A stretch of 64,000 bases of DNA from positions 863 through 64,862 of the forward strand of contig JAAOYF010000017.1 of NCBI GenBank assembly GCA_018221205.1. The letters are read 5' to 3'. This DNA comes from Candidatus Woesearchaeota archaeon (lineage in GTDB: Archaea; Nanobdellota; Nanobdellia; Woesearchaeales; WJIZ01). The notes under the pieces were generated by a model. The model saw only the letters and a program-made list of their open reading frames with translations. It ran no database searches and had not been told where the DNA came from. Numbering within the stretch: the first letter of the stretch is position 1; each line of letters opens with the position of its first letter. Positions 16,782 through 64,000 of this stretch are shown here, one piece after another. The translations under genes were made by a program, and so were the position numbers.

Positions 16782-17671
16782 CGCGACCTCCAATATCCAA
16801 GGATGTCCTTTAGTGTCTGTTCAAAAGGAATCTCCGGCTTCCAGCCAGTATCATGTGTGACTTTTGAATTATCTCCTATCATCACTTGGATATCCTGCTT
16901 CCGGAATTTCTCTGGAGATTGCTGGATGGCGATCTTATGGCTGCTCAGTTCCAGCATCTGCTGGAGGATATCGACAATCTTCTGCCCCTTTCCAGAACAG
17001 AGATTATAGGTCTCTCCGTACCTTCCTTTGGTAGCGAGAAGATAATATCCTCTGACAATATCTCTCACATCAGAGAAATCTCTCACTGCTTCCAGGTTCC
17101 CTATCTGGATATTGGCCTTCTTCCTTCCCTTCTCGATCTCAGCAATCTGTTTCGCAAAATCCGAGATGACGAATTGCTCTCGTTGTCCGGGTCCTGCATG
17201 GTTAAAGCTTCGGGAGATGATAATGGGCATGATGTCCTGATAAGACTTGCATAACTCTTCCTGTTCAAGTTTTGATTCGGCGTAAGGATTGAGTGGCCGT
17301 AAGGAACTGCTTTCAGTGAGAGGGACAGTCTCGGGCTTGCCATATACTTCAGCAGAGCTGACAAGCAGAAAAAAAGGCTTGTATGGTGCACACGCCTCGA
17401 GCAGATTCTTCGTTCCTTCAACATTTATCTTTTTCGTCAATGCTGGTTGTTTCCAGCTCATCTGGACAGAAGATTGGGCAGCAAGATGGAAGACATAATC
17501 AGGCTGCGTTTCCTTGATGAGCTGCCCTACTTCTTCCTTATTCGTGATATCGACAGCATAGTCGACATCTTGAGATATCTCGCTCGTGCTGACAACAGAA
17601 AAATGGTTCTCGAGATGTTTCCTGAGATAGGGGCCCACAAAACCGTTGGCTCCGGTGATCAGTGCCTTCAT
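16778..17671 (-). CDS. GDP-4-dehydro-6-deoxy-D-mannose reductase-like SDR (Rmd/Fcl family)
   Basis: [13 protein letters not shown]...PYAESK (YxxxK). It lies immediately downstream of gmd with a 4-nt overlap. Confidence 0.7.
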
Positions 17672-46559: not shown

Positions 46560-47480
46560 TCATTCCAAACCGGGGGGCATGATAAAGGTGACTTTCTCAG
46601 TGACGTGATCTAGGGTTTGTATTGTACAAGAAGTGTTTTTCTTTCTGATAGCTGTGATGACTCCTTCAACAAGATAATCAGGAACACTCGCACCAGAAGT
46701 TATCCCCAAGGTTTCGATATTTTCCAGCCATTCTTCTTCAATTCCCTTCTCATCCGGGATAAGATATGATTCCGTGCCAGAATATTTGGCAGTTTCCATT
46801 AATCTGACTGAATTCGAGCTTGTAGGGCTGCCGACAACAAGGATAAGTTCTGCCTGCTGTGCCATTTCCTTGACCGCACCTTGCCTGTTCGTTGTCGCAT
46901 AGCAGATATCCTCTTTCGGCGGTGCCTCGGCTTGGGGATATCTCGCTAAGATCTCCCCCATAATCTCCCTCATATCATCAATTGATAATGTTGTCTGTGT
47001 CAAAATGACGATTTTCTCATTATTCAGAGCAAGCTGCTTGACATCTTCAACATTCTCGACGAGATGCATCGGCGAAATGGCCGTAACACCGACAGCTTCT
47101 TGATGTCCTTTATGGCCGATATAGATGATGTCATACCCGTTTCTATGGAATCTCCGTGCCTCAACATGCACTTTCGTTACTAAAGGACATACTGCATCTA
47201 TTGGGAGGATGCCCATTTCAGCCGCTTTTTCCTTCAAAGCAGGTGGACTGCCATGTGCACTGAAGATGACTTTGCTTCCTTTAGGCACCTCATCCAAAGA
47301 TTCGACAAATATCACTCCTTTCTTCTCCAATTCCTTGACAACATGGGCATTATGAACGATTGCGTGCCTTACATAGATGGGTTTGCCGAATTTCTCTAGG
47401 GCTTTCTCTACAATATCGATTGCTCTGCTCACTCCGGCACAATATCCTCGTGGGCTTGCAAGAATGATTTTCTTGACCAT
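46560..47480 (-). CDS. ispH: 4-hydroxy-3-methylbut-2-enyl diphosphate reductase (IspH/LytB)
   Basis: PRGYCAGVSRAI...VRHAIVHN...SAHG...AVCPLVTKVH...ICYATTNRQ...VVGS.TSSNS shows all three Cys ligands and the conserved blocks. Confidence 0.85.
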   Translation of the reverse strand: MVKKIILASPRGYCAGVSRAIDIVEKALEKFGKPIYVRHAIVHNAHVVKELEKKGVIFVESLDEVPKGSKVIFSAHGSPPALKEKAAEMGILPIDAVCPLVTKVHVEARRFHRNGYDIIYIGHKGHQEAVGVTAISPMHLVENVEDVKQLALNNEKIVILTQTTLSIDDMREIMGEILARYPQAEAPPKEDICYATTNRQGAVKEMAQQAELILVVGSPTSSNSVRLMETAKYSGTESYLIPDEKGIEEEWLENIETLGITSGASVPDYLVEGVITAIRKKNTSCTIQTLDHVTEKVTFIMPPGLE

Positions 47481-52593: not shown

Positions 52594-53046
52594 TTAGAAA
52601 ACCAAGAGAATGATGCCTACAACTATCAGAAAGAAGAATATTTTCTCTAAAATCCCTCCTGTCTTGACAAATCCTTTGGCCTTGAAACCCAGAGGCCAGA
52701 ACGGTCTGATGCCTTTTTTTGTCAAAGCATCCAAAATAAGGTGAGATGCTGTTCCAAATAAGAATCCGAAAGCAACTTCTTGATAAGGCAAAAAAGAAAG
52801 CAGGATATATCCTGCCAAGACAAACCATATTGAATGAAAAAACGTCCGATGCCCGAAGATAAGCTTAAGGAATGAAGAAAGCATGCCAATTTTCTTGCCG
52901 GCTTTTGATTTCGGCTCATCAATATCTACAAAAGCAGTGAAGAGAATCAACGAAGCAAAGAATAAAATGTTGCTTTGAAAAGAAAAATAACGTAAAGAAA
53001 CTATACCGATAAGGATTGAGAACACTAAATGGGTATAAAATAGCAT
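52594..53046 (-). CDS. Membrane-bound metal-dependent hydrolase (YdjM/DUF457 family)
   Basis: Four TM helices and a HLILDALT motif. The start overlaps the rpa stop by 1 nt. Confidence 0.5.
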   Translation of the reverse strand: MLFYTHLVFSILIGIVSLRYFSFQSNILFFASLILFTAFVDIDEPKSKAGKKIGMLSSFLKLIFGHRTFFHSIWFVLAGYILLSFLPYQEVAFGFLFGTASHLILDALTKKGIRPFWPLGFKAKGFVKTGGILEKIFFFLIVVGIILLVF

Positions 53047-54050
53047 TATTGTACAGCTTCGGCTTCTTTCTCTAATCTTTTTAATTCTTCATCTGGATTT
53101 GGATCAGGAAACACTTGTTGGGAGATGAATTCAATCCTATCAAACATCTCGTTTTTAGTCACCCTGCCGACAATCTTGACAATTTTTCCCAATAATCCAT
53201 CTTTGATTGCTTGAAATTCTGCAGTATTCTCTTTTAATTTGAGAATTTCATCATTATTTTTTTGCAGGAGATTATTCATCTGATTCCTGAAGAAAATCGT
53301 CCGTATCGTCGAGGTTCCATCATCCAGGACAGTATTCATCACATACCCATATGCTGTTGCAACGCTTCCATGTGTCGGACATTCAAATCCGTTCTCTTTC
53401 TGCTTTGCTCTCTTCCCGCATTCCGGACACACTTCATAGAACCGAGGCTCAAAAGCCTGGACAATAGTGCCCAATAGCTCGATATTGCTCTCATTTTCCT
53501 TGAGATCAGCGATTTTTCTCCTACCTACAACGGGCTGGGCAACCTCACCGACAGTCTCACCCTCTGGATTCGGGATGATCTCTCCTTTTGTAGCAAGGTG
53601 TATCTCTAGATTATTATTATTATTCCGGGAATACGCACCAACAACCTTGACGATAATGCCCATTTTAAGATCCTTCACAATATCTGTCTGTTCATTCCAT
53701 AATACGACCCTGATAGTGCCTGTTTCATCTCCGATAGTAAATGCTAAGACCTTCCCGGCACTCCCATCTTTCCGATTGAACTCCTTGACATCGAACAATT
53801 GGGTGATTTTGCCGACAGTCTCAACACTCCTCATCCCTTCGAGAATACGTTTGATCTTGACTTTGGTCTGTGATTCATCAAAAAGCTTCACTCCCAATTC
53901 ATTGGCTATGATGTGGGCGGCTCCTTCTTTGGAGATCAGCCCAGAAAGCTGGTCCATCTTGGACTTGATCTTGGCATCGATCTCTCCGTCGCTGATCTTG
54001 GCCTGCTCTTTGATCTTCTCAACTAACATGTCAAAAGGTACTTTAATCAT
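53046..54050 (-). CDS. rpa: Replication protein A (ssDNA-binding, euryarchaeal RPA with OB folds and Zn ribbon)
   Basis: OB-fold blocks plus CPECGKRAKQKENGFECPTHG zinc ribbon. Its TATA box (ctttaaatag, 54082-54091) overlaps the last codons of the upstream gene. Confidence 0.7.
   Translation of the reverse strand: MIKVPFDMLVEKIKEQAKISDGEIDAKIKSKMDQLSGLISKEGAAHIIANELGVKLFDESQTKVKIKRILEGMRSVETVGKITQLFDVKEFNRKDGSAGKVLAFTIGDETGTIRVVLWNEQTDIVKDLKMGIIVKVVGAYSRNNNNNLEIHLATKGEIIPNPEGETVGEVAQPVVGRRKIADLKENESNIELLGTIVQAFEPRFYEVCPECGKRAKQKENGFECPTHGSVATAYGYVMNTVLDDGTSTIRTIFFRNQMNNLLQKNNDEILKLKENTAEFQAIKDGLLGKIVKIVGRVTKNEMFDRIEFISQQVFPDPNPDEELKRLEKEAEAVQ
53609..53623. repeat. (ATT)5 trinucleotide microsatellite inside rpa, encoding an Asn5 linker
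   Basis: attattattattatt, read on the coding strand as AAT x5 = NNNNN in RPA. Confidence 0.6.
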
Positions 54051-54082: not shown

Positions 54083-55576
54083 TTATGGGATAGTTATCGT
54101 AGCTATTGCATAGAGTATGGGGAATTCATTGCGATATTCGGGCCTGACTCGTAAGATCGTTATTCCTTCTTTCTGGTCTTTTTCCACAGGATTCCCGGCT
54201 TTATCTGCCACAAGAACAGCGACACAGTAAGTTTTCCCTGGCATGAACAGCCCAAGAACATCATTCTTCTCTCTTCGTTGCCCGCCTAGGACCCCTTCAC
54301 CATCCATAGTGACAACGTCAGTGCAATCTCCTTCCTTGATATAATAGTAAACATCAAGATTTTCCTCAGCCAGATCCATAGTGATGTCGCTTACAGTTAA
54401 TTGAAGATTTGTTGCTGCCGGAGGAGCGAGCCTATCTTGTGGGGTGAATGTTCTGGTGAGAGGGTCTGCCATATTGCTGTTCTTATCGACTCCGGTGATA
54501 GTGAAGGTATATTCCTTGTCCTCAAGATTAGGGATAAGGTAATGATACAAAGAATCTGAATAAAGGAAAAATGATTTCATCTCTTTTACATAAGGTTGCG
54601 CATCTTTTATTGAAGCAGAAAGCGATGTTGAATCAAATTCGATGTTGAAATGATCAATGTCCTTATCATCGGCCTTCCATGAGAGAATGACTCCTTTGTC
54701 CAGTTTAGAGGCTATCTCTACAACCAATCCACCAAGCTGCGGTGCTGTGTCTCTGAAATAGACCGCAAATTTGACTTTTTGTTGTTTCTCTGAAAGCCCT
54801 TTCCCCTGAGGGATTAGATAATGGTTATTGGTCGAGGCGCAGAACAAGAATGTCCTGTCATCATCATTATCCTTCTTCTCACAATCGATTTCTAATAATA
54901 TGATTTGTCTCTTATTGAAATCATCGACTGCTTTGGTTACGCAGCTGGAAAGCTGCGCACTCCTCTCGCAATCTACAACATCAGAAAAGATCTGAGAGAA
55001 TTCTTGCCATAAAGTATCATAGATGGAAGTATCATAGGCAAGAGTGAGGTCAAAACTAGGTTTCAAAGTAAGATTCCCTATCTTATCGTTCTTGAATTCT
55101 ATAGGCTGCACAAGATTCTGCAATGCAATGCCTATGATCTGCAGTCCTCTATTCTCTCGGCTGTAGAATTCATAGTCGATATCCAAGCCTGCTTTATCCA
55201 GGTTGCTTTTGAGAAGCGGAAGAAGCGCTTGATGGAGGTTCTTGAACAGGATATTCTGTTCTGGAAAGCAGATGCTGTCTTTTGTCTGCCACAAGACATA
55301 TTCTACGCTGCCGCAGGGAAACGTTTGATAATATCCTCCTCTCTCCTCTAAAAGAGAGAGTGCCTGATAGGAAGAGAATTTCGCAGCGTGGTCAATATAG
55401 AACAAGGATTGCTGTTGCTTGCTTGAGATGTCCAAGATCTCAAACTGCAGTTCCCCTATCTTGGCAGAGAAATCCCCTTTCATGTTGTCGAGAGTGATGA
55501 ACAGGCTGGGAAAGATCATGCCGATCATGAAAAGTGACAGCAGCAGTATGAACACCATCCCTTTTTTTGATCTCAT
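54083..55576 (-). CDS. Secreted or cell-surface protein with a class-III (prepilin-like) signal peptide; function unknown
   Basis: N-terminus MRSKKG|MVFILLLSLFMIGMIF, the rest hydrophilic. Last gene of the long minus-strand operon. Confidence 0.5.
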   Translation of the reverse strand: MRSKKGMVFILLLSLFMIGMIFPSLFITLDNMKGDFSAKIGELQFEILDISSKQQQSLFYIDHAAKFSSYQALSLLEERGGYYQTFPCGSVEYVLWQTKDSICFPEQNILFKNLHQALLPLLKSNLDKAGLDIDYEFYSRENRGLQIIGIALQNLVQPIEFKNDKIGNLTLKPSFDLTLAYDTSIYDTLWQEFSQIFSDVVDCERSAQLSSCVTKAVDDFNKRQIILLEIDCEKKDNDDDRTFLFCASTNNHYLIPQGKGLSEKQQKVKFAVYFRDTAPQLGGLVVEIASKLDKGVILSWKADDKDIDHFNIEFDSTSLSASIKDAQPYVKEMKSFFLYSDSLYHYLIPNLEDKEYTFTITGVDKNSNMADPLTRTFTPQDRLAPPAATNLQLTVSDITMDLAEENLDVYYYIKEGDCTDVVTMDGEGVLGGQRREKNDVLGLFMPGKTYCVAVLVADKAGNPVEKDQKEGITILRVRPEYRNEFPILYAIATITIP

Positions 55577-56019
55577 GTATACCCCAGGATTGCTAGTCGT
55601 ATCGGTAATGGTCCTTCAGGACTCGCGATGTCCATCGATTGTTCAAGAAGCACCTGTTTTTTCTCACAATCTACACTGTACAGCGTCTGATCATCCTGCC
55701 ACAATGCCCAGCATATGGGCTGTGCCTGTCCATATACACTGTTCAATGCATGATTGATTACATTCTTTGCCAGATCCCTTGACGGATTTTCAATAGTGAG
55801 CAGGACTTCATCTGCAACAGTGGTTGATTCGGTCACAGGGGTCTGCAGGATGCTGATGAGGATGCCTTTGTCATCAAGATAGCCTTTCTGGATTGAGATT
55901 TCATACGTGATATCTCCGATAAGGAATGAATAAGCGACAAACCATGCTACCATCCCCAAAAAGAAGAAAAACCAACCTAGCATATCTGTAAATATGCCCA
56001 AAAATCCTTTCTTATTCAT
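55573..56019 (-). CDS. Small pilin-like protein (class-III signal peptide)
   Basis: MNKKG|FLGIFTDMLGWFFFFLGMVAWFV. 4-nt overlap with the downstream gene. Confidence 0.5.
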   Translation of the reverse strand: MNKKGFLGIFTDMLGWFFFFLGMVAWFVAYSFLIGDITYEISIQKGYLDDKGILISILQTPVTESTTVADEVLLTIENPSRDLAKNVINHALNSVYGQAQPICWALWQDDQTLYSVDCEKKQVLLEQSMDIASPEGPLPIRLAILGYT

Positions 56020-56473
56020 ATTCCACCGTCTTTATCTGCATCTTTCCCTCGCTTCCGTTGTGGCTGACGAGATATCTCCAGAAAAGATTATCATGAAATT
56101 TGCTGAATTTTGACAAAGGCTCATCTCTCTCAAACCATTTTTGATTGTAGAAGATCTCCTTCTGCTGCCCATCTCTCTCTAAGATGATCCGTGCGCTGAA
56201 CGTGTCCTCTGCATCGTCAGCCCTAATCAATTCCTCTGGTAACTTTTCCTTGATCACACCAGGATATGTCCGCAACGCGAGTGGTGATTCGTGGCTCAAT
56301 TCTCCATAGATCGCGCGATGAGAGAAGATCACAGCCCGAAGATCATAAAGTTCAATCTTGTTGTTGACATGCGTACTCACGAGCAGCCACAACGTGAAGA
56401 AGATGATGACTAGGAAAAGCATTCTCCAGAATCCATAATTCAGTATCTTGAATCCATCTCCTTTTTTGTTCAT
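56012..56473 (-). CDS. Small pilin-like protein (class-III signal peptide)
   Basis: MNKKG|DGFKILNYGFWRMLFLVIIFFTLWLL. Confidence 0.5.
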   Translation of the reverse strand: MNKKGDGFKILNYGFWRMLFLVIIFFTLWLLVSTHVNNKIELYDLRAVIFSHRAIYGELSHESPLALRTYPGVIKEKLPEELIRADDAEDTFSARIILERDGQQKEIFYNQKWFERDEPLSKFSKFHDNLFWRYLVSHNGSEGKMQIKTVEYE

Positions 56474-57477
56474 ATGAACCCCGAATGTAAGGCAATCTTC
56501 AAAGCCTGGAGCTTTTCTGTAGTGAACTCCTCTTTGATACTTATCTCTATGATAAGCTGTGCCGGATTTCCTATCTTTTCTTCAAGGGTGAATGCTGATG
56601 CAGGTATCGATGCAGAGATTTCTGTGCCGAATCCATCATCGACAAGGCCATTGACAAGGCTGCATGAAAGCCCGATCAGATCAGCATTATCAGCAAAGTA
56701 GTAGCTCTTGACTGAATCAGTGCTTTGTTTGTCAGAGAACAGAAGATAGGTGATTGTCCCTGAGGCAGCATCCCTTTTCTTGATCTCTCCTCGCTCTCCC
56801 AGGAAATTCTTGACATCAAGATAGGGATCATTATCCTCTGTGATGAAGACCAGATCAGTGATAGGCCTGGATTTAGGGCAATTAAGAAAGTTTGGCTGCT
56901 TTTCTTCAAGTGTCGAGCTCACGGTGAGTTGATTAGGCGTCTTATAGAAGTAAAGATTCATGCCTTCTTCTCTCTTCACTTTGTTTTTGCGCAGCACCTC
57001 AAGTATAGGCATATACTTTGAGATGAATCCTTTCTTCGGCGGCTGGATATTTGAAGTGAGCAGCGCTGGTTTGATGGTAACAGAAGGGTTCTGGATGAAA
57101 TGCTCTCGTTCTCTCTCTGTGGTTGGTTCATCTCTTTTCTCAAAGACCTCGATCCGGTCTGTCTTGAGTTCCAGTCCGAACCAATAAGTATCTTGAGGAT
57201 AATGCAAAAATGCATTTCCCGGAACCGAAAGTAAAGTATCTGTCAATAGCGCAGTATCTTTTGCCAATAGTCTCTTCTGATAGAATGATTGCTCTCCTAC
57301 TTCTCCGATATAGCGGAAGATAAGAAGGAGTATAACAAGAAGTATGAAAAGATCGATGAACCAAAAGATGGCCTCTCCCTCTACACCCTTTTTTCCCAGT
57401 AGTTTAGCAGTAAACATTGACTCCTTTCTCACTTTTCCGTAATGTGCATGTATAGGTAACAGCATTCTCTTCATCAA
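56470..57477 (-). CDS. Pilin-like or secreted protein (class-III signal peptide); alternative start Met21 at 57417
   Basis: ...MFTAKLLGKKG|VEGEAIFWFIDLFILLVILLLIF followed by a ~280-aa hydrophilic domain. Confidence 0.5.
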   Translation of the reverse strand: MMKRMLLPIHAHYGKVRKESMFTAKLLGKKGVEGEAIFWFIDLFILLVILLLIFRYIGEVGEQSFYQKRLLAKDTALLTDTLLSVPGNAFLHYPQDTYWFGLELKTDRIEVFEKRDEPTTEREREHFIQNPSVTIKPALLTSNIQPPKKGFISKYMPILEVLRKNKVKREEGMNLYFYKTPNQLTVSSTLEEKQPNFLNCPKSRPITDLVFITEDNDPYLDVKNFLGERGEIKKRDAASGTITYLLFSDKQSTDSVKSYYFADNADLIGLSCSLVNGLVDDGFGTEISASIPASAFTLEEKIGNPAQLIIEISIKEEFTTEKLQALKIALHSGFI

Positions 57478-57868
57478 GCTTCGGCTCTGCCCTGAAATCC
57501 TCGACTAAGGCCTTCTCCAGCTCAATGCATTTCTTCAGTGCCTTGTTCTGGCAGTTTGAATCCTTGATACAGATGCACACGCAGGATTTTGTTGACGTGC
57601 ATCCTAATTGGCTGATCCCTTTGGTGAATCCTTGGATTTCATGGATCTCATCGATGTACATGGGAATTTGCTCCTCGATCTTCACCATGTTATCGATCTC
57701 TATCTGTAATCGTTCAAGGCTGCTCCTCGTTCCAGTCTCAAGATCCTGGACCCAGTAGCCGGTGAGCATGATGAAGATTTTCCATGCGATGAAAGAAAGT
57801 AAGACAAAGAACAATACCTCGATGAACAGCTTGATGCCGAATCCTTTCTTATTGACAGGTCGAAGCAT
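57404..57868 (-). CDS. Pilin-like protein (class-III signal peptide) with a Cys-rich C-terminus
   Basis: MLRPVNKKG|FGIKLFIEVLFFVLLSFIAW. Seven Cys in the C-terminal half. The ORF track's longer start (57907) would overlap the upstream gene by 59 nt. Confidence 0.45.
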   Translation of the reverse strand: MLRPVNKKGFGIKLFIEVLFFVLLSFIAWKIFIMLTGYWVQDLETGTRSSLERLQIEIDNMVKIEEQIPMYIDEIHEIQGFTKGISQLGCTSTKSCVCICIKDSNCQNKALKKCIELEKALVEDFRAEPKLDEENAVTYTCTLRKSEKGVNVYC

Positions 57869-58136
57869 CCTTGGTCCGTAGACTCCATTCCTCTCCTTTG
57901 CATTCATACAAATCTTTCCCTCTGCATTCCGTTTGTCCTGATGTGCATTTTCGTAATCCTAATCCTTCTAAAGCCTCGTTATTGCCGTCTCCTGCCCCCC
58001 GAGTAAGCTCCTTGAACGCATCAGAGATGCCTCCCATCCTTCCGGTGAAGATCGCGATGATGACAAACAATACTACAAGCAGAATAGCCGCGACAATCAC
58101 TGTATTCATCGTTAATTCCATTCCTTTTTTCATCAT
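57849..58136 (-). CDS. Small archaeal type IV pilin-like protein (class-III signal peptide, Cys4 C-terminal domain)
   Basis: MMKKG|MELTMNTVIVAAILLVVLFVIIAIFTGR, then C-x7-C-x7-C-x13-C. Confidence 0.6.
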   Translation of the reverse strand: MMKKGMELTMNTVIVAAILLVVLFVIIAIFTGRMGGISDAFKELTRGAGDGNNEALEGLGLRKCTSGQTECRGKDLYECKGEEWSLRTKDASTCQ

Positions 58137-58870
58137 CTCACCATCATATATGTTATGTCTTGTTCATCTCCCCTCATGAGAGCAACCAAGCTTGATTGTG
58201 ATATCTCCCCAATGACGATGCCTCCTCTCCGTGCGCTCGCCTCATACCATCCTATATTCTCGATCTTATCGATATACACACCATTTTGGCCTGAAGAGAA
58301 ATCAAAAGGCCGTTGACTGATCTTTCCTCTGAAATCATTTGCCCAGAGGATATTCGTGAATTCCAGTTCTCTCTTCCAATCCTCATCGACAAAGATATAG
58401 AACACGAATCTACCTTCCTCTTCTCGTGCAAGAACAAAGCCGTTGATGATGCCGTCATGAGGATCAAATTCATGCCCGATGCTCATCGCAACTAATTCAT
58501 CAGCCAATGCCCTCTTTTCAGACAGGCCCATCCCTCGTGTCTTGTTAAAAAAATCAGCAGGCAGATATTCTGAATCGAATTCCTCTCCTTTGTACATCCC
58601 TTGATAGAAGAATGAAGTCAATCCTTCAGAGGTGAAATAATCCTGCTGTGATTTCAACGTCTTTAAGCTGCCTTCTGTCGCCAGATACGTGTCGACGACA
58701 ACCTCTGCAGGATCTGTCGGGCTTTCATACACCCAATCTGAAGGATTATCAGTGAAGAATACTTTCTCTCGAGTAGGCTTCGGTGTCAATTCAGATATTA
58801 AGAATATCCCGGCAACTACCAAAACCAAAACTAATCCTATAATGATGATTATCTTCTTCATATTAATCAT
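58133..58870 (-). CDS. Secreted or anchored protein (N-terminal hydrophobic anchor), function unknown
   Basis: MINMKKIIIIIGLVLVLVVAGIFLI, then a hydrophilic acidic domain. Confidence 0.45.
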   Translation of the reverse strand: MINMKKIIIIIGLVLVLVVAGIFLISELTPKPTREKVFFTDNPSDWVYESPTDPAEVVVDTYLATEGSLKTLKSQQDYFTSEGLTSFFYQGMYKGEEFDSEYLPADFFNKTRGMGLSEKRALADELVAMSIGHEFDPHDGIINGFVLAREEEGRFVFYIFVDEDWKRELEFTNILWANDFRGKISQRPFDFSSGQNGVYIDKIENIGWYEASARRGGIVIGEISQSSLVALMRGDEQDITYMMVR

Positions 58871-61847
58871 GACTCGGCCACTGGCTAGGTATATCGATAG
58901 CTGCTTCTTTCAATACTTCCCCACTCACTCCTGTCGCCATTCCTACCCCTGCCATACAAACAGGTATGAGGGGGGGTGCAGCAACAAAAACTACGCATGC
59001 AAAAGGTGCAAGAACCTCTGTTATACTTACAACGGCTTTGAAAGTGGTATCAAAATCGCTAATGCCATGATAACAGTAATTATCCTCTCCGAAATTCTCA
59101 ACTTGCGGATTTATTTGGATACAAAGAGGTGTATAGATCGGATTTGCAAAACTTACAGTTTCTACAAAGCTCTTAGGGTGACATTCTTTTATTGCATTAT
59201 GTTCATTGTCAATACTATAGAGCATTGTGCTATCACCATCAAAATGATCATAATCAAGAAATATTCCAGTTGGTTTCCCCTCTCCATCCTTTATCTCGTA
59301 TTTTTTCCCTGTTTTGTATACTCCTGATTCCTCATTTTCATCATAATAACATTCACAGCTACTTACTTCAAGAAGGATATCTGTTTGGCAGGGACTGACA
59401 AGATGGAACCGTTGAGGATCCTGATCAAACCATCCTTTATCTTTGGTTAGAGATAGATAATAGCGATTGGTCTCAGGCAACATGCCTTGTAAACCTGGTT
59501 CACCGTAATCTTCTAGGAATTGTTTTGCAAGTTCTTTATGACTTTCAACTTTTTTTGTCTGATCAGTCGATGCTATCCCATCAGTAAAGTTGTTGATATC
59601 AGAGTAACTCACATCAAGGAAGTTAAATTCGCCGTAGGTAGCAGTATGCAGATAGGGTGTTTTCAGTCCCATCGCATTGGTACCTATTGGATAATATTTT
59701 GCTTCCATACTTTCAAGTCTGGTTGCTATCACACCGACTGCCATAGCCAGAAGGTGTCTCTTCTTCATTAATGGATTTGTCATATCTAACCCCCTTGATG
59801 CAACGCTTAGATACATTCGTTCTGTTCTAGAAACAAGTGCCCGCACGTCAGTAGAGGTGACGAAGTTTTTTAATTCTCTCAACGCTTGCTTTTTTGCCTC
59901 GTCAGTAAATTCTCTCCCGGTTTGGCCAAGAATGAATTCCCCCGTCTCTTGATTTAGGATGAGTTTTTGTGCTTTCCTTTGATTTGCCAAGAATATTCGA
60001 AGTTCGTTAGGGCTCATTTTAGTGAGCATTGTCTCGCTATCTCTCAAAATGCCAATAAGAAACCCCTTTCTTTCTGCCTCACTCATATCTAATGCTGCAT
60101 GCTTGAGCATATTGTTTGCCCTATTAGCTGTCCTTTGGGTGTTTAGCGCAGCTCTTGCTAATAATTTCCAGGTGGCATCATACATCTCTTTGCCCATGGT
60201 GGTTCCTAAATCTCTAATCACACTATCAAAATTTGGGATATCTCGCTTAAGCGCATTCATGATCAGCCGGTCTTCTGCACTATCCTTAAATGTCCCTTGC
60301 ATCACTCGGCTGAATTCCCCACCAAAAGCTTCTCTGCCCTGGGTTGTTATCCTGCCTGCGCTATCAAACGCATCATCTCCTAGACTACCAAATGCCTCAG
60401 CAGCTTTTTTCTTCATAAGTAATATAGAGTCCTCTCCTAGCTCTTCGACTGCTTCCTTACCTAGTCTCTTTCGTAATGTTTCCTTGATGATGATCTCTCC
60501 TGCTTCTTCTATAGTATCGGCAGCTACACCTCTTCGCAGAATAAACCTGGCTGAATTCTTGATGGCTGTTAAGAAAACATCTCCTACAGCCCCCACCGCT
60601 GCACGCATCTGTTGTTTGAACGGTACAATCTTTCCTGCTAGCTTTACTGTTCCTCCGACTAATTTGCCTCCTACTTTTACAACGCCTACTAATGGTCGGA
60701 TAACTGGGGCCGCGATCCTTCCAAGGCCCATAGTGATTACACTTAAGGTGCTGATAGCGATTTCTGTACCGATAATAGCAGCAAAACCAACTTGATAGCT
60801 ATCCATTTCCCAGTAAGTTGCCTCCTCTTGTGGAAATTTCTCATAGAATAAGATATAATTAGGATCTCCATAAGCTGCTAACCATTCTTCAGAAAGATAG
60901 CCGATTGCTCCCCCAACCCCACTTCTCTCAGCAAATTCCTGCGGCAACGCAAAATTATTCACTTTATAGCCGAAAGATAATCTATTAGTATCAGCTTCAC
61001 AGGCATTTCCTAAAGAGTCGGCGTGAAAAAATACTTCATTAAGGCCATCATTATTTGCGCAGATGCTCACTTGCTGGCCTTCTCTGCTTGTAAAATAATC
61101 ATCCGGCAGTTTCTCCCAGTTGAGGTTCTCAGAATTGAAAATACTATACCAGCTTCCGCCTGTGATATCCTCGACTTCATTAGCGCAGGTATCTTTAGGA
61201 ATGTGTTTGAATCGCTCGCTGAGATAATAACAGATATTCCACTTCTCCTTTTCCAGATAGGAAAGAAAGTCCTTTTCAGAGAGTTTATCAATTGCAGGAA
61301 GATGTTTATACCCATCCTCAAAGACAATAGAATAACAATTAGTATTTTCAGTATCTTTATCATGGAAGATAAGCCAGCAGTTGATCGTACCGATAGCCAA
61401 TTCCCGTAATCCTTCATCATACGTAGCAGAAGGAGAGACAAACACCGTCTCCCTATCATAATACGTCGGCTTGATATCGACGCTGCCGAAAGATCTCATA
61501 TAAGGCTCCTGCAGTTTCTTCCGTTCTGCAGGTGTTTTGAACACATTGGGATCGAAAAGGCCAAGGACTTTGTCCTTCTCCTCTTTATAAGTATCAATAT
61601 AAGCCAGGCTATTGACAGCAAATATCAATCCATTGACAGAATTGACAGCATTCTGGTTCATCTGTTGGGTAAGGTTGAATCGTTCCTGCATCTCCTGATC
61701 GAATTGGCTGATATTCGCATTTCCCAGAAGATATTGCACCGGTGTGCTGCTCAGGTCAGCCATGATTCTCCAGCCCGATACGATGACAAAGAATACTATG
61801 ATTCCTTTTATAATCGTGGCCAGTGTGAATGCTTCTCCTTTTTTCAT
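58863..61847 (-). CDS. Giant (994 aa) surface or membrane protein with a class-III-like N-terminus, internal Gly-rich hydrophobic segments and a C-terminal hydrophobic anchor
   Basis: MKKG|EAFTLATIIKGIIVFFVIVSGW; central GFAAIIGTEIAISTLSVITMGLGRIAAPVIRPLVGVVKVGG; C-terminal FACVVFVAAPPLIPVCMAGVGMATGV. No known domains recognised. Confidence 0.5.
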   Translation of the reverse strand: MKKGEAFTLATIIKGIIVFFVIVSGWRIMADLSSTPVQYLLGNANISQFDQEMQERFNLTQQMNQNAVNSVNGLIFAVNSLAYIDTYKEEKDKVLGLFDPNVFKTPAERKKLQEPYMRSFGSVDIKPTYYDRETVFVSPSATYDEGLRELAIGTINCWLIFHDKDTENTNCYSIVFEDGYKHLPAIDKLSEKDFLSYLEKEKWNICYYLSERFKHIPKDTCANEVEDITGGSWYSIFNSENLNWEKLPDDYFTSREGQQVSICANNDGLNEVFFHADSLGNACEADTNRLSFGYKVNNFALPQEFAERSGVGGAIGYLSEEWLAAYGDPNYILFYEKFPQEEATYWEMDSYQVGFAAIIGTEIAISTLSVITMGLGRIAAPVIRPLVGVVKVGGKLVGGTVKLAGKIVPFKQQMRAAVGAVGDVFLTAIKNSARFILRRGVAADTIEEAGEIIIKETLRKRLGKEAVEELGEDSILLMKKKAAEAFGSLGDDAFDSAGRITTQGREAFGGEFSRVMQGTFKDSAEDRLIMNALKRDIPNFDSVIRDLGTTMGKEMYDATWKLLARAALNTQRTANRANNMLKHAALDMSEAERKGFLIGILRDSETMLTKMSPNELRIFLANQRKAQKLILNQETGEFILGQTGREFTDEAKKQALRELKNFVTSTDVRALVSRTERMYLSVASRGLDMTNPLMKKRHLLAMAVGVIATRLESMEAKYYPIGTNAMGLKTPYLHTATYGEFNFLDVSYSDINNFTDGIASTDQTKKVESHKELAKQFLEDYGEPGLQGMLPETNRYYLSLTKDKGWFDQDPQRFHLVSPCQTDILLEVSSCECYYDENEESGVYKTGKKYEIKDGEGKPTGIFLDYDHFDGDSTMLYSIDNEHNAIKECHPKSFVETVSFANPIYTPLCIQINPQVENFGEDNYCYHGISDFDTTFKAVVSITEVLAPFACVVFVAAPPLIPVCMAGVGMATGVSGEVLKEAAIDIPSQWPSHD

Positions 61848-61993
61848 GTTCCGAAAAGATTATCTAAAAGGGCAAACGAGCTCCCCTTGAATTTTCCGAT
61901 GATCAGTAGGATGACGATAAGTACTAAGAGTACAAAGAGGAACCATCCGATAAAGTCCCATGTTATTGCTTTCTTCAGGCGAGTACGTCGCAT
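61844..61993 (-). CDS. Unannotated small ORF (49 aa), single-TM protein, translationally coupled to the 994-aa gene
   Basis: Manual translation gives MRRTRLKKAITWDFIGWFLFVLLVLIVILLIIGKFKGSSFALLDNLFGT. Its TGA overlaps the ATG of the downstream gene (ATGA). Confidence 0.35.
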   Translation of the reverse strand: MRRTRLKKAITWDFIGWFLFVLLVLIVILLIIGKFKGSSFALLDNLFGT

Positions 61994-62820
61994 ATTTGAG
62001 CCACCTCACTGTAAAGTACTACATCCATCACATTGACAAATTCCTTTCCTTCCTCTGTCTCAATGCTTAGCCAATTCTCCTTGATATAATCCCATGCGCT
62101 AGATGAAAGAGCATCTACTTGATGTTGGTTTATTGCCTTGAACACAATAGCGTAGGATTCTTTCAAAGAATAATCATAATAGGGAAACTGAAACGCATCT
62201 ACGGGATCCAGCGTCAGTTCATAATAGCTGATCTCATGATACTTGGGTTTTTTCGACCGCATATAATTATCGAGTGTAAGATCCAGACCAGAGTATTCTA
62301 ATGGACCGAATTTTGAATAGCGGACTTCATTATCTATGATACCCTCGAATTTTTTCTGGACAGAAGTATCAAAGGTGAATTGCGCGCACATCACACATTG
62401 TCTGCTCGTGTCCCATGCATCCAACACTTGCAGCCTGCCTTGAGCAAATTGGTCCCAGCAGTCAAATATCAACCCAGAGATGACTTTATTGGAGGCATTG
62501 AGATAGCATTCCTGACCTTTCTCATTGTCGAGTTTCCCGCATTTGATCTTGTGCTCAGTATCTGTCTTCCTAGATTCAATAGTGTATTTATTCTCAAAGA
62601 GCGTGACATATCTGGTTGGACAATCAAGTTCAAAGCCTTCTGTATTGGCGACCGGCAACCTGCCTTTTGAGTTCCAGATGACTGATTGTACACAGGTCTG
62701 TTTATCATAGAAAGGGGATGTTCCCTGATCTATCTTCTTGATGAGCAGCATCCCTATTCCGCTCACTACCAAAGCGAGGATAAGCATAGCCAAAAACCCA
62801 GCTGCGATTCCTTTTTTCAT
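61975..62820 (-). CDS. Pilin-like or secreted protein (class-III signal peptide) with a Cys-rich domain
   Basis: MKKG|IAAGFLAMLILALVVSGIGMLLI. Eight Cys in the mature part. Confidence 0.5.
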   Translation of the reverse strand: MKKGIAAGFLAMLILALVVSGIGMLLIKKIDQGTSPFYDKQTCVQSVIWNSKGRLPVANTEGFELDCPTRYVTLFENKYTIESRKTDTEHKIKCGKLDNEKGQECYLNASNKVISGLIFDCWDQFAQGRLQVLDAWDTSRQCVMCAQFTFDTSVQKKFEGIIDNEVRYSKFGPLEYSGLDLTLDNYMRSKKPKYHEISYYELTLDPVDAFQFPYYDYSLKESYAIVFKAINQHQVDALSSSAWDYIKENWLSIETEEGKEFVNVMDVVLYSEVAQICDVLA

Positions 62821-62969
62821 GGTAGTCTAAGATAGGTTGAAGCATATCTATAGATGATGATGAGCAGAACAATGACAAAGATCCATATCCAGATCATATT
62901 GGTGCCGCTTTCAATAGGCTGACCCTCTGCCGCTAACTCTGCTCTCTTACCTAAAACTCCATTCTCCAT
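62817..62969 (-). CDS. Unannotated small ORF (50 aa), single-TM protein, translationally coupled to the downstream 281-aa gene
   Basis: Manual translation gives MENGVLGKRAELAAEGQPIESGTNMIWIWIFVIVLLIIIYRYASTYLRLP. ATGA overlap with the next gene. A/T-rich TATA-like sequence lies 15-35 nt upstream (62975-63005). Confidence 0.3.
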   Translation of the reverse strand: MENGVLGKRAELAAEGQPIESGTNMIWIWIFVIVLLIIIYRYASTYLRLP

Positions 62970-63008
62970 CCTAATCAGTATAAAAATTGCTATACTAGTA
63001 TATAAATA

Positions 63009-63263
63009 TTATCCTTCAATCAGGCAACAGACCTTATTTGGAGGCACATCATAGAATTGCCCATTGACAGGGCTTCCTTTCTCTAGACAATCAGACTTAG
63101 AAAGGGTGCTTTTATTCTCTCCGGCGCAAGACACGCTTGCTGTACTTTTTTCCAGATCATCAGTGAAGGAGATGATGCCTGAAAAGAAAAAGAGGACAAT
63201 CACAAGAAAGATAACAGCAGAGATAACAGCAAAGACTTTAGTGGGATTGACGGTTACCATCAA
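63009..63263 (-). CDS. Small pilin-like protein with an N-terminal TM helix and a Cys4 C-terminal domain (paralog of 63270-63572)
   Basis: Hydrophobic VFAVISAVIFLVIVLFFF, then C-x12-C-x20-CC. Confidence 0.5.
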   Translation of the reverse strand: MMVTVNPTKVFAVISAVIFLVIVLFFFSGIISFTDDLEKSTASVSCAGENKSTLSKSDCLEKGSPVNGQFYDVPPNKVCCLIEG

Positions 63264-63269
63264 CCCATG

Positions 63270-63572
63270 CTAACCCACTTTCTTCTTCGAACAGCAGATA
63301 TTATCGCCTTCCACATCAAGATATCTGCCTGGAAGCACCTGATCGCATTCTGATCTCAGTGTGGGTTCTCCACCTAATGAAACGCATTTTTGCGCTTCAT
63401 CTATTCCCAAGCCGAATAAACTGATCCTTCCAGTGAAGACAGCGATAAGAACAACAAGTACAATCAGAGCTATAGCAGCTACAATGATGACATTGATGGA
63501 TATGCCTTGTGCCTTCCTTGAAAATCCTTGATTTTCGAGGCGCTCGAACATCTTTGATGGTTGACGTTTCAT
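63270..63572 (-). CDS. Small archaeal type IV pilin-like protein (class-III signal peptide, Cys4 domain); alternative start Met8 at 63551
   Basis: ...SRKA|QGISINVIIVAAIALIVLVVLIAVFTGR. The pilin N-terminus and the FTGR motif are shared with 57849-58136. C-x10-C-x16-CC. Confidence 0.55.
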   Translation of the reverse strand: MKRQPSKMFERLENQGFSRKAQGISINVIIVAAIALIVLVVLIAVFTGRISLFGLGIDEAQKCVSLGGEPTLRSECDQVLPGRYLDVEGDNICCSKKKVG

Positions 63573-63628
63573 AGTATCCCTCTTTTAGTTTGTTTCCGGA
63601 TTTCTATTATATAAATATATCGATAAGT

Positions 63629-64000
63629 TCAGTCCCCCTCACAGATAAACAAGCTCAAATAAAGGGTATTGGGTGGGTTTAAAGGAAGGGGCTGCTGCTT
63701 CATCCTCCTATTGCCTGTGCAATCGTCGTCATCAAAAGTGAGTATGTCCTTGCTCGTCCCTTCAATATCATTAGGATCAAAGCTGGCATAAAAATTGTAA
63801 TTGATGTTCCATGAGTTGAAGGTGGACCCGAATAGCTCACCGAGCTTGTTGCGGAGATAAAAGCAGGAATACGCATCAGGATTGCTGCATCGTATTCTTC
63901 CATCTGGAGGATTGTTAGCACAATCCTGGAAAAGCGTGCTCATCTTGATATCTGAGCAATCTGGGTTGTTCGTCTCCATCATCGCATTCAGAAAGTTTGC
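63629..64000 (-). CDS. C-terminal fragment of a Cys-rich secreted protein; the ORF continues past the window end
   Basis: The reading frame is open from 64000 down to the stop at 63629. Cys-rich, Asn/Asp-rich, no TM segment. Confidence 0.35.
   Translation of the reverse strand, partial: ANFLNAMMETNNPDCSDIKMSTLFQDCANNPPDGRIRCSNPDAYSCFYLRNKLGELFGSTFNSWNINYNFYASFDPNDIEGTSKDILTFDDDDCTGNRRMKQQPLPLNPPNTLYLSLFICEGD

What the first reader, a model, noticed from the sequence alone, without database searches (positions are those of the whole stretch)
54083..64000. About 10-kb co-directional operon of at least 12 class-III-signal-peptide (pilin-like) proteins including a 994-aa giant: candidate novel surface filament or adhesion system
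From 63572 down to 54083 every gene is on the minus strand, and most neighbouring pairs overlap by 4-8 nt (ATGA-type coupling). Nearly all products begin with a short basic leader ending in KKG (or RKA|Q) followed by a 20-25-residue hydrophobic helix. Examples are MKKG|EAFTL, MKKG|IAAGF, MMKKG|MELTM, MNKKG|FLGIF, MNKKG|DGFKI, SKKG|MVFIL, NKKG|FGIKL and GKKG|VEGEA. This is the archaeal prepilin-peptidase (PibD/FlaK/EppA) substrate signature. Sizes range from 84 to 994 aa. Several are Cys-rich, two ~50-aa single-TM ORFs are interleaved, and a further Cys-rich protein runs off the window end. No FlaI/PilB ATPase, FlaJ/PilC platform or peptidase is in the window. So this is either the structural arm of a pilus locus whose assembly genes lie upstream (beyond 64 kb), or a set of pilin-anchored surface proteins of unknown function. 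None of the proteins matches a family I recognise. The system is my best candidate for an undescribed one.
Basis: partly seen in the sequence, partly recalled or inferred. Interest (0 to 1): 0.8.

Follow-up and report, generated by a model that had tools for sequence, protein, structure and literature searches.

The report
Woesearchaeal pilin-like surface-filament operon
The window holds the distal half of a long operon, conserved in many tiny DPANN archaea (Woesearchaeota and relatives), that encodes about fifteen unannotated pilin-like proteins; in sister genomes its last protein carries enzymes that cut bacterial cell walls, so it probably builds a surface filament for contact with bacterial hosts.

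Summary
Fourteen co-directional minus-strand genes run from 64000 to 54083. Ten of the 13 complete ones start with a basic leader ending in KKG, KKA or RKA, followed by a hydrophobic helix. None of 53 other genes in the window does.

The contig is from a Candidatus Woesearchaeota archaeon. The same gene order recurs in about 120 public loci from Woesearchaeota/Nanoarchaeota. There the [KR][GAS] site is conserved in 80-98% of members of most families, often with glutamine at +1. That is the processing site of Methanococcus Epd pilins cut by EppA.

The operon continues upstream of the window with four more pilin-like genes and one or two giant Sec-secreted Cys-rich proteins, not with assembly genes. 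No secretion ATPase, platform or peptidase lies within 10 kb in any locus.

The 994-aa protein is a polytopic membrane protein with no structural relative in the PDB, not a filament subunit. In sister loci the last gene family carries SLT, M23, glucosaminidase or 3D peptidoglycan-hydrolase inserts. The window's copy lacks the insert.

Best reading: structural genes of an unannotated type-IV-filament-like host-contact apparatus, assembled by machinery encoded elsewhere. I rate it a new variant of a known kind.

The parts
63629..64000 (-). F05: C-terminal 123 codons of a ~170-aa pilin-like protein with 6 Cys; its N-terminus lies beyond the window end
   Evidence: The frame is open up to base 64000. 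It is 44% identical to residues 56-176 of the L002 orthologue, which starts MRKKLA|QMEIMGLAIIV. The [KR][GAS] site is present in 43/45 family members, all 43 with Q at +1.
63270..63572 (-). F06: 100-aa small pilin-like subunit (leader ...SRKA|QGISINVIIVAAIALIVLVVLIAVFTGR, 4 Cys); candidate major filament subunit
   Evidence: There are 240 homologues, all unnamed and without Pfam hits. The first ~28 mature residues are nearly invariant across 108 sequences. The AF2 model (pLDDT 78) shows a helix at 26-60 plus a small beta-hairpin knob. It is a paralogue of F12.
63009..63263 (-). F07: 84-aa protein with an N-terminal membrane helix and 4 Cys, without the KKG motif
   Evidence: One orthologue in L002 (38% identity) and weak similarity to a small pilin of L001.
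62817..62969 (-). 50-aa single-helix ORF (KRA followed by a polar stretch, then a TM helix); status uncertain
   Evidence: It overlaps the next gene by 4 nt. My profiles found no orthologue.
61975..62820 (-). F08: 281-aa pilin-like protein (MKKG|IAAGFLAMLILALV, 8 Cys)
   Evidence: 52-54% identical to the L001 and L002 orthologues. Found 41 times in the 51 genome loci, often duplicated. The [KR][GAS] site is present in 33/41.
61844..61993 (-). F09: 49-aa protein (…RLKKA|ITWDFIGWFLFVLLVLIVILLIIGK…); a leader plus one helix, resembling a minimal pilin
   Evidence: ORFs of about 50 aa with KK[GA] leaders sit at the same position in many loci.
58863..61847 (-). F10: 994-aa polytopic membrane protein with a pilin-like N-terminus (MKKG|EAF...), two acidic 6-Cys outer domains, a basic Cys-free ~320-aa helical central domain and two C-terminal membrane helices
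58133..58870 (-). F11: 245-aa bitopic protein with an N-terminal helix, no [GAS] site and no Cys; always next to F10
   Evidence: 2/6 members with G/A/S after the last basic residue.
57849..58136 (-). F12: 95-aa small pilin-like subunit (MMKKG|MELTMNTVIVAAILLVVLFVIIAIFTGR, 4 Cys)
   Evidence: Paralogue of F06 (BLAST E 1e-8; hhalign probability 87% on the regions that follow the membrane helix). The [KR][GAS] site is present in 27/31.
57404..57907 (-). F13: 167-aa pilin-like protein (…PVNKKG|FGIKLFIEVLFF, 8 Cys); the true start is probably the ATG at 57868
   Evidence: The orthologue leaders are short, which favours the internal start (inference).
56470..57477 (-). F14: 335-aa pilin-like protein (…LLGKKG|VEGEAIFWFIDLFILLVILL); the true start is probably the ATG at 57417
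   Evidence: 18 members in the mapped loci, 13 of them with the site.
56012..56473 (-). F15: 153-aa pilin-like protein (MNKKG|DGFKILNYGFWRMLFLVIIFF)
55573..56019 (-). F16: 148-aa pilin-like protein (MNKKG|FLGIFTDMLGWFFFFLG); its globular part is distantly homologous to F05
   Evidence: hhalign F05 against F16: probability 91%, E 1e-6 over 108 columns, with the membrane helix removed. The site is present in 14/15 members.
54083..55576 (-). F17: 497-aa pilin-like protein (MRSKKG|MVFILLLSLF, 8 Cys), last gene of the operon; this copy lacks the cell-wall-hydrolase insert that orthologues carry
   Evidence: Among orthologues, L032 has SLT (86 bits), L043 SLT (42 bits), L028 Glucosaminidase (58.6 bits), a second L028 copy 3D (34.5 bits), L047 Peptidase_M23 (81 bits) plus 3D, and L020 3D (30 bits). 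Between the two anchor motifs, members hold 140-270 residues, which contain the hydrolase domain where one is detected. The window's copy has 16 residues there. Its only Pfam signal is a noise-level Ig-like hit.

Best explanation
The region is the distal half of a 15-25-kb operon that is conserved in Woesearchaeota and related DPANN archaea. The operon encodes the structural proteins of a type-IV-filament-like surface apparatus.

Proposed steps (all inferred unless marked otherwise):
1. Each product inserts into the membrane by its N-terminal hydrophobic helix.
2. A prepilin peptidase of the A24 family (FlaK/PibD/EppA type), encoded elsewhere in the genome, cuts off the short basic leader after [KR][GAS]. 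The conserved site is shown here; the cleavage is inferred.
3. The 80-100-aa proteins F06 and F12, and perhaps the ~50-aa F09, have nearly invariant mature N-termini and polymerise into the filament shaft.
4. The larger pilin-like proteins act as minor pilins. These are F02-F05 upstream of the window, and F08 and F13-F17 inside it. They would prime assembly and sit at the tip or base.
5. F17 is the functional head. In sister genomes it carries interchangeable murein hydrolases (shown). In this genome it carries only non-catalytic, probably Ig-like, domains.
6. F10, F11 and the small single-helix proteins stay in the membrane as a lineage-specific base.
7. The giant Sec-secreted Cys-rich F01 proteins encoded at the head of the operon act as adhesins or as a sheath.
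8. Assembly is driven by a FlaI/FlaJ-type ATPase and platform encoded at another locus.

The likely role is attachment to, and local breaching of, the wall of bacterial partner cells.
For: Leader site:
- The motif is present in 10/13 operon genes against 0/53 other window genes.
- It is conserved at the same junction in orthologues of 34-55% identity, and it switches between G, A and S across genomes.
- Across 51 genome loci it occurs in 36/38 F02, 50/51 F03, 43/45 F05, 52/56 F06, 14/15 F16 and 11/13 F17 members, against 3/41 for the Sec-type F01 control.
- Glutamine at +1 is found in 43/45 F05, 30/38 F02 and 28/56 F06 members. This matches the EppA substrates of M. maripaludis (KGQV, KGQI, RAQI; PMC4371748), for which +1 Gln is required (PMC4390842).

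Pilin-like features:
- The mature N-terminus of F06 is nearly invariant over 108 homologues while the rest of the protein varies.
- Its AF2 model is a 35-residue helix followed by a small disulfide-bonded knob.

Conservation:
- Gene order is fixed in 51 genome loci and 69 metagenome loci.
- F05 and F16 are distant paralogues, as are F06 and F12. This is what duplicated sets of minor and major pilins would look like.

Function of F17: orthologues carry SLT, M23, glucosaminidase or 3D domains at one insertion point.

Precedents and context from the literature:
- Pilin genes encoded apart from pilB/pilC are known in H. volcanii, and the M. maripaludis pilin EpdE is likewise encoded apart (PMC4371748; PMC4858521).
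- flaI, flaJ and flaK are reported in most Woesearchaeota MAGs (PMC11606122 and PMC5994134).
- Nanoarchaeal secretion ATPases were reported without identifiable cognate pilins (PMC4858521).
Against: - No ATPase, platform or peptidase lies within 10 kb in any of about 120 loci. I could not search whole genomes for them.
- One groundwater study states that type IV pilus components are missing from DPANN genomes (bioRxiv 10.1101/2020.05.14.094862).
- No member hits any Pfam or NCBIfam pilin model.
- No profile hit to any solved pilin. The small-pilin model has no significant structural match.
- In this window only one protein has Gln at +1. The others have M, I, E, F, D or V there.
- Residues +2 to +4 often include E, Q or G. 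As I recall the FlaFind pattern, it would reject these; the tool itself was not run.
- F10 is polytopic, so it cannot be extracted into a filament.
- The window's own F17 has no hydrolase domain.
Confidence: 0.55

Rival explanations
1. A membrane-anchored surface complex rather than a filament. On this reading the N-terminal segments are uncleaved signal anchors, with the N-terminus inside and the C-terminus outside. About fifteen bitopic proteins, together with the polytopic F10 and the giant F01 proteins, would form a fixed envelope or host-attachment plaque. No type IV assembly motor would be involved.
For: - No motor, platform or peptidase gene is linked to the operon in about 120 loci.
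- No hits to pilin families or to solved pilins.
- F10 is polytopic, and F11 has no cleavage-type site.
- The positive-inside rule alone would place K/R residues before a membrane helix.
- One study reports that DPANN lack type IV pilus components.
Against: - The positive-inside rule does not explain a small residue (G/A/S) directly after the basic pair in 80-98% of members of most families. It also does not explain the frequent +1 Gln, which is the EppA recognition feature.
- The Sec-type F01 proteins of the same operon lack the feature (3/41).
- The near-invariant mature N-terminus of F06 is typical of polymerising subunits.
Confidence: 0.22
2. A short pseudopilus or bindosome-like scaffold. 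The proteins are processed like pilins but form only a short stalk in the cell envelope. The stalk displays enzymes and binding domains, such as the F17 hydrolases and the F01 adhesins, at the surface. This would resemble the Sulfolobus bindosome or the pseudopilus of bacterial type II secretion, rather than a long fibre.
For: - There are many different large pilin-like proteins but few small ones.
- An enzyme is fused to a pilin-type N-terminus in F17 orthologues.
- Functionalised type-IV-filament machineries that carry class III signal proteins have been proposed for archaea (bioRxiv 10.64898/2026.04.22.720090).
- Two quartets of pilin-like genes resemble sets of pseudopilins.
Against: - No substrate-binding-protein or ABC-transporter genes lie in or near the operon.
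- One to three tandem small subunits with an invariant N-terminus suggest a real shaft.
- Sequence alone cannot separate this reading from the best explanation.
Confidence: 0.18
3. A structural module of an integrated virus or other mobile element.
For: A long run of unannotated small genes with overlapping stops and starts.
Against: - GC content matches the rest of the window (0.41-0.44).
- No integrase, capsid, portal or tRNA gene was seen in the operon or in the neighbouring genes scanned.
- The chromosomal neighbours RPA, YdjM and RadA are the same in distant genomes.
- Orthologues diverge to 25-30% identity across many Woesearchaeota and Nanoarchaeota MAGs while keeping their order, as expected for vertical inheritance.
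Confidence: 0.02

Closest known systems
Epd pili of Methanococcus maripaludis (archaeal type IV filament 'System 1', Makarova clade 1; EppA-processed pilins)
   Same: - An operon with many different pilin-like genes.
- Leaders ending in K/R-G/A with Gln at +1 (KGQV, KGQI, RAQI).
- One small major pilin and several larger minor pilins.
- A major pilin that can be encoded away from the motor genes.
   Different: - The Epd locus contains the peptidase EppA, an ATPase and two platform genes. Here none is linked in about 120 loci.
- No sequence-family membership: there are no hits to Class_IIIsignal (DUF361) or other pilin models.
- Here there are also giant Sec-secreted Cys-rich proteins, a polytopic 994-aa protein and hydrolase-bearing pilin-like proteins.
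Minor-pilin and pseudopilin sets of bacterial type IV pili and type II secretion (FimU-PilVWX-PilY1; GspH-I-J-K)
   Same: - Consecutive genes for four differently sized pilin-like proteins, encoded beside a large adhesin.
- Two such quartets here (F02-F05 and F14-F17), one pair of which (F05 and F16) is demonstrably paralogous.
   Different: - No detectable sequence or structural homology.
- Archaeal-type leader rather than G|F(T/S)L(I/L)E.
- No secretin and no linked motor.
Sulfolobus bindosome, and archaeal substrate-binding proteins with class III signal peptides
   Same: Functional proteins carrying a pilin-type N-terminus, presumably displayed on a type-IV-filament-derived scaffold.
   Different: The cargo here is not a substrate-binding protein. 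In sister genomes it is a murein hydrolase. No ABC transporter is nearby.
Large extracellular lytic-transglycosylase proteins of Woesearchaeota and Pacearchaeota (fam00969 and 'Module 98' of lineage-specific families, Castelle et al. 2021; the 'vampiristic' Woesearchaeota of Vigneron et al. 2022)
   Same: Same lineages. Peptidoglycan hydrolases in archaea that lack murein are taken as a sign of bacterial hosts or prey.
   Different: The passages I read from those papers describe the hydrolases as isolated large proteins. Here the hydrolase domains sit in a protein with a pilin-type leader, encoded by the last gene of a conserved pilin-like operon. Four different catalytic types swap at one insertion site. 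I could not check whether the families overlap with Module 98.
DPANN 'dark-matter' pilin islands next to FlaI/TadC (Makarova, Wolf and Koonin 2019, Fig. 2A)
   Same: Runs of unannotated DPANN proteins with signal peptides, interpreted as diverged pilins.
   Different: Those islands were recognised because FlaI and TadC are adjacent. This operon has no such neighbours.

Membership tests
Archaeal type IV pilin-like proteins (class III signal peptide, substrates of A24 prepilin peptidases) | Short positively charged leader ending in [KR]-[G/A/S], directly followed by a hydrophobic helix of about 20 residues at the very N-terminus | tested here: met
   10/13 complete window genes against 0/53 controls. 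80-98% of members in most families across 51 loci, against 3/41 in the Sec-type F01 control. The site is conserved between divergent orthologues.
Archaeal type IV pilin-like proteins (class III signal peptide, substrates of A24 prepilin peptidases) | Actual removal of the leader by PibD, FlaK or EppA | not testable with these tools
   Needs N-terminal proteomics or a heterologous cleavage assay.
Archaeal type IV pilin-like proteins (class III signal peptide, substrates of A24 prepilin peptidases) | A positive call by the dedicated predictors (FlaFind, or the SignalP 6 pilin class) | not tested
   The predictors are not available here. As I recall the FlaFind pattern, E, Q or G at +2 to +4 in several of these proteins might fail it.
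Archaeal type IV pilin-like proteins (class III signal peptide, substrates of A24 prepilin peptidases) | Match to a curated pilin or archaellin model (Pfam Class_IIIsignal, Pilin_N or Arch_flagellin; NCBIfam archaeal N-terminal domain models) | tested here: not met
   No such hit for 10 window proteins at E<=0.1. None among 108 F06 homologues at E<=1.
Archaeal type IV pilin-like proteins (class III signal peptide, substrates of A24 prepilin peptidases) | Pilin architecture: a long N-terminal alpha-helix carrying a C-terminal globular domain | tested here: inconclusive
   The AF2 model of the 100-aa protein has a helix at 26-60 followed by a small beta-hairpin knob. Foldseek against the PDB gives nothing better than E 1.8. 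Profile searches against PDB sequences are empty.
EppA-type (Epd, System 1) pilins | Glutamine at +1 of the mature protein | tested here: inconclusive
   Met by most F02, F04 and F05 members (30/38, 31/51, 43/45) and half of F06 (28/56) across loci. In the window only the 100-aa protein has Q. The others have M, I, E, F, D or V.
Complete type IV filament system (as defined for archaeal TFF loci) | A PilB/FlaI-type secretion ATPase encoded in the locus | tested here: not met
   The only Walker-A protein in the window is RadA. No T2SSE-type Walker A within 10 kb in 51 genome loci and 69 metagenome loci. The precomputed Pfam labels of neighbouring genes show none.
Complete type IV filament system (as defined for archaeal TFF loci) | A TadC/FlaJ-type platform protein encoded in the locus | tested here: not met
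   None of the eight polytopic window proteins scanned hits T2SSF. None appears in the Pfam-labelled neighbours. F10 is polytopic but has no structural relative.
Complete type IV filament system (as defined for archaeal TFF loci) | An A24 prepilin peptidase somewhere in the genome | not testable with these tools
   None in the window, and whole genomes could not be fetched. The literature reports flaI, flaJ and flaK in most Woesearchaeota MAGs. One study states that DPANN lack type IV pilus components.
Peptidoglycan hydrolases (SLT, Peptidase_M23, Glucosaminidase, 3D) | A catalytic domain detected in the window's own F17 (54083-55576) | tested here: not met
   No hit. The window's copy has 16 residues where members of the family hold 140-270 residues, which include the hydrolase domain where one is detected. 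Six orthologues pass the Pfam cut-offs.
Bindosome-type class III substrate-binding proteins | A substrate-binding-protein domain behind the pilin-type leader | tested here: not met
   No SBP family hits in any operon protein.

The most novel reading that the evidence does not exclude
A DPANN-specific organelle derived from type IV filaments. Its subunits are encoded in a stand-alone operon, unlinked to any motor, together with giant Cys-rich adhesins and a new kind of polytopic base protein. It displays interchangeable murein hydrolases on a pilin stalk to pierce the walls of bacterial hosts. This would amount to a previously undescribed host-attack or feeding device, and it would imply that many Woesearchaeota live on bacteria rather than on archaea.
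Probability: 0.3. Interest if true: 0.85.

Novelty: new variant of a known kind. Interest (0 to 1): 0.65.

Why it matters
Woesearchaeota and their relatives make up a large part of archaeal diversity. None is cultured, their hosts are unknown, and their genomes are mostly unannotated.

This operon gives a concrete, widely conserved set of about 18 gene families for their surface apparatus. It links the puzzling murein hydrolases of these archaea to a pilin-type display system.

It also offers candidate cognate pilins. Secretion ATPases of nanoarchaea were earlier reported without identifiable cognate pilins.

If confirmed, the question of how and on whom these cells feed becomes testable with antibodies, cryo-ET, metaproteomics and enzyme assays. 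It would also supply new models for automatic annotation of pilins in DPANN genomes.

Tried and rejected
- Pfam and NCBIfam scans of ten operon proteins gave only noise.
- A Pfam scan of 108 small-pilin homologues gave only membrane-helix noise such as DUF948.
- Profile searches of F03 and F06 against PDB sequences found nothing.
- For the 100-aa model, Foldseek gave only non-significant matches to defensin-like knobs.
- Exact look-ups of window proteins in the contig index found nothing, or only a 1.5-kb Logan contig. The 3.6 kb of the source contig outside the window could therefore not be read.
- The third homology search, on the 148-aa protein, returned only the query itself.
- The bacterial promoter and terminator scan was no better than shuffled sequence and does not apply to archaea.
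- The virus or mobile-element reading was rejected on composition, synteny and vertical conservation.
- The idea that assembly genes lie just upstream was rejected from syntenic loci.
- Large pilin-leader proteins other than F17, and the F10 relatives, were scanned for hydrolase domains. None was found.

Full report
**What is in the window**

The ORF list shows an unbroken series of fourteen minus-strand genes from base 64000 down to 54083.
- The first gene runs off the window end with an open frame.
- Seven junctions overlap by 4 or 8 nt.
- Downstream lie genes for a replication-protein-A-like OB-fold protein, a YdjM-family membrane protein and RadA.
- GC content is the same as in the rest of the window, and there are no tRNA genes.
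- The 994-aa product is identical to a hypothetical protein of a Candidatus Woesearchaeota archaeon, locus tag GOV09_02495, on a 67.6-kb contig.
- None of ten operon proteins hits Pfam or NCBIfam above noise.

**The leader motif is real and specific**

I scored each protein for [KR][KR][GAS] in the first 38 residues, followed within ten residues by a strongly hydrophobic 15-residue window. The rule is met by 10 of the 13 complete operon genes and by none of the 53 other genes in the window (Fisher p about 1e-9).

The 994-aa protein has only two close relatives in a 5.8-billion-protein library. Their contigs, L001 and L002, are fully syntenic with the window.
- Orthologues are 34-55% identical.
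- The junction is kept throughout, but the small residue changes: KKG in this genome, and KKA or KKS, often followed by Q, in the relatives.
- Conservation of a site under sequence turnover is what a processing site predicts. A plain positive-inside membrane anchor would not require it.

**The operon is larger than the window and widely conserved**

In L001 and L002 the operon begins upstream with a 1775-1786-aa protein. That protein has a Sec-type signal, about 80 cysteines, TSP3 calcium-binding repeats and a C-terminal anchor. Four further pilin-like genes follow it (F02-F05). The cut gene at the window end is F05.

A scan of one genome per species with an F03 alignment returned 51 loci. Those with an informative record title are Woesearchaeota, Nanoarchaeota or Nanoarchaeia MAGs; a few are titled only 'archaeon'. 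Several TPA records carry titles (mostly 'Methanosarcinales') that are probably wrong. A metagenome scan returned 69 more loci.

I built profiles for each family and mapped them on all loci. The recurring order is:
- F01 (one or two giants), then F02, F03, F04 and F05;
- one to three small F06 genes;
- one or two F08 genes and an ORF of about 50 aa;
- a variable middle section;
- F12, (F13), F14, F15, F16 and F17.

The 994-aa F10 and its partner F11 occur in only 6 of the 54 sequences mapped. A full profile search nevertheless finds 235 cluster representatives of the F10 family.

**Statistics of the site across loci**

The residue after the last basic residue before the helix is G, A or S in:

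| Family | Members with G/A/S |
|---|---|
| F02 | 36/38 |
| F03 | 50/51 |
| F05 | 43/45 |
| F06 | 52/56 |
| F08 | 33/41 |
| F12 | 27/31 |
| F16 | 14/15 |
| F17 | 11/13 |
| F01 (Sec-type, internal control) | 3/41 |

Position +1 is glutamine in 43/45 F05, 30/38 F02, 31/51 F04 and 28/56 F06 members.

The experimentally studied Epd pilins of Methanococcus maripaludis have the sites RAQI, KGQV, KGQL and KGQI (PMC4371748). Their peptidase EppA needs the +1 glutamine (PMC4390842).

An acidic residue lies within the first six mature positions in F03 (xxExQFNW, invariant), F04, F05 and F12. This is reminiscent of the Glu5 of bacterial pilins.

**The small subunits**

The 100-aa protein has 240 homologues, all called hypothetical and without Pfam hits.
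- In an alignment of 108 of them, the first ~28 mature residues (QGISINVIIVAAIALIVLVVLxAIFTGR) are nearly invariant. The rest varies except for four cysteines.
- The AF2 model (pLDDT 78) is a 35-residue helix followed by a small beta-hairpin knob.
- This fits a minimal pilin, but it has no significant structural match and no profile match to any solved pilin.
- The 95-aa protein is a paralogue.
- The ORFs of about 50 aa that carry KK[GA] leaders look like leader-plus-one-helix subunits. That reading is an inference.

**The 994-aa protein**

Alignment, the AF2 model (pLDDT 74.7, pTM 0.66) and composition agree on the following layout:

| Segment | Feature |
|---|---|
| N-terminus | Pilin-type leader and helix |
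| 32-352 | Acidic alpha/beta domain with six Cys |
| about 353-372 | Membrane helix |
| 373-690 | Basic, Cys-free helical domain; net charge +11, so probably cytoplasmic |
| 691-717 | Weak membrane helix |
| 718-929 | Acidic beta-rich domain with six Cys |
| C-terminus | Two membrane helices |

**No motor nearby**

In the window, the only Walker-A protein is RadA, and none of the eight polytopic proteins scanned is a T2SSF or A24 family member. No T2SSE-type Walker A protein lies within 10 kb in any of the 51 genome loci or the 69 metagenome loci. The Pfam-labelled neighbours show none either.

Whether the genomes encode the motor elsewhere could not be tested here. The literature is mixed:
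- It reports flaI, flaJ and flaK in most Woesearchaeota MAGs.
- It reports nanoarchaeal secretion ATPases without known pilins.
- One study states that DPANN lack type IV pilus components.
- Separate pilin and motor loci are known in Haloferax, and the Methanococcus pilin EpdE is also encoded apart.

**A functional clue from the last gene**

F17 orthologues carry peptidoglycan-hydrolase domains:

| Locus | Domain | Score |
|---|---|---|
| L032 | SLT | 86 bits |
| L043 | SLT | 42 bits |
| L028 | Glucosaminidase | 58.6 bits |
| L028, second copy | 3D | 34.5 bits |
| L047 | Peptidase_M23 plus 3D | 81 bits (M23) |
| L020 | 3D | 30 bits |
| two others | 3D | below threshold |

- Between two conserved anchor motifs, members hold 140-270 residues, which contain the hydrolase domain where one is detected. 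The window's copy and its nearest relatives have 16 residues there, so they lack the module.
- Other large pilin-leader proteins and the F10 relatives have no such domains.
- Murein hydrolases in Woesearchaeota and Pacearchaeota have been noted before as signs of bacterial hosts or prey. The passages I read do not mention their place in a pilin-like operon or their pilin-type leader.

**Paralogy**

With the membrane helix removed, F05 and F16 are homologous (hhalign probability 91%, E 1e-6), and so are F06 and F12 (87%). No other pair is. The operon therefore contains partly duplicated sets of pilin-like genes.

**Interpretation**

The evidence best fits the structural gene set of a type-IV-filament-like apparatus specific to Woesearchaeota and their relatives. 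It would be processed and assembled by machinery encoded elsewhere, and it probably serves contact with bacterial partners.
- Shown here: the genes, the conserved site, the synteny, the lack of linked motor genes, the topology model of F10, and the hydrolase inserts in orthologues.
- Inferred: cleavage, polymerisation, the role of each protein and the target.
- Main rival: an uncleaved, membrane-anchored surface complex.
- A short pseudopilus-like scaffold is a variant that I cannot separate from a long filament.

**Novelty**

The kind of system, archaeal class III signal proteins and type IV filaments, is known. This operon differs from every described archaeal system that I could compare it with:
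- it has no family membership;
- it has no motor linkage;
- it contains giant Sec-dependent partners;
- it contains a polytopic protein with a pilin-type N-terminus;
- it contains enzyme-bearing pilin-like proteins.

I rate it a new variant of a known kind, with moderate-to-high interest.

Noticed in passing
window 44291-45520, 46560-47480, 45567-46544: GcpE (IspG) and LytB (IspH), genes of the bacterial MEP isoprenoid pathway, lie in this archaeal contig next to a squalene/phytoene synthase gene. The literature already notes this pathway in Woesearchaeota (PMC8204110).
   Followed up: partly
window 38461-39918: A single 485-aa ORF hits both the small-subunit and large-subunit DNA primase models. 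This suggests a fused PriS-PriL primase.
   Followed up: no
window about 1-37000: A long glycosylation and polysaccharide island. It includes NAD-dependent epimerase-like N-termini, a Wzx-type flippase (21340-22758), asparagine synthase, a CDP-alcohol phosphatidyltransferase, and several large polytopic proteins, three of which hit DUF6541 and/or PMT_2. It may glycosylate the surface proteins encoded next door, but no link was tested.
   Followed up: partly
L002:5002-5361 (C-terminal tail of the 1786-aa F01 protein): Behind the C-terminal membrane anchor, the Lys-rich tail ends in a Cys motif with a weak Ada_Zn_binding hit (E 0.0027, below the cut-off). This hints at a small cytoplasmic zinc module on a giant surface protein.
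   Followed up: partly
L055:16151-22656; window 52594-54050; L002:18258-19746: The RPA-like and YdjM genes stay next to the F14-F17 block in distant genomes. This holds even where an inversion has turned that block around. No functional reason is known.
   Followed up: no
L037:401-4833 (also L105/L106): A second, inverted partial copy of F05-F04-F03, next to a 777-aa, 30-Cys protein with an F04-type N-terminus, lies upstream of the main operon.
   Followed up: no
L005, L006, L007, L010, L012, L014, L018 and other loci: Many TPA MAG records that carry this DPANN-type operon are titled 'uncultured Methanosarcinales archaeon', and one is titled 'Dehalococcoidales bacterium'. These are probably wrong taxonomic labels.
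   Followed up: no
window 63270-63572 (model of the 100-aa protein): The four-Cys C-terminal knob gives weak, non-significant Foldseek matches to beta-defensin and tick carboxypeptidase inhibitor folds (E 1.8-8). Two homologues give weak Pfam Defensin_beta hits.
   Followed up: partly
L034:538-1092 (minus strand): Upstream of one operon lies a separate 184-aa protein whose leader, MKKRGQIAVEYILIITVAL, looks to me (from memory) like the canonical euryarchaeal class III signal, the DUF361 QxxxExxxL type. Classical and operon-type leaders would then coexist in one genome.
   Followed up: no
window 15282-16793 and 37542-38435: Two membrane proteins, of 503 aa (about 8 helices) and 297 aa (about 4 helices), have no Pfam hit at all.
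   Followed up: no
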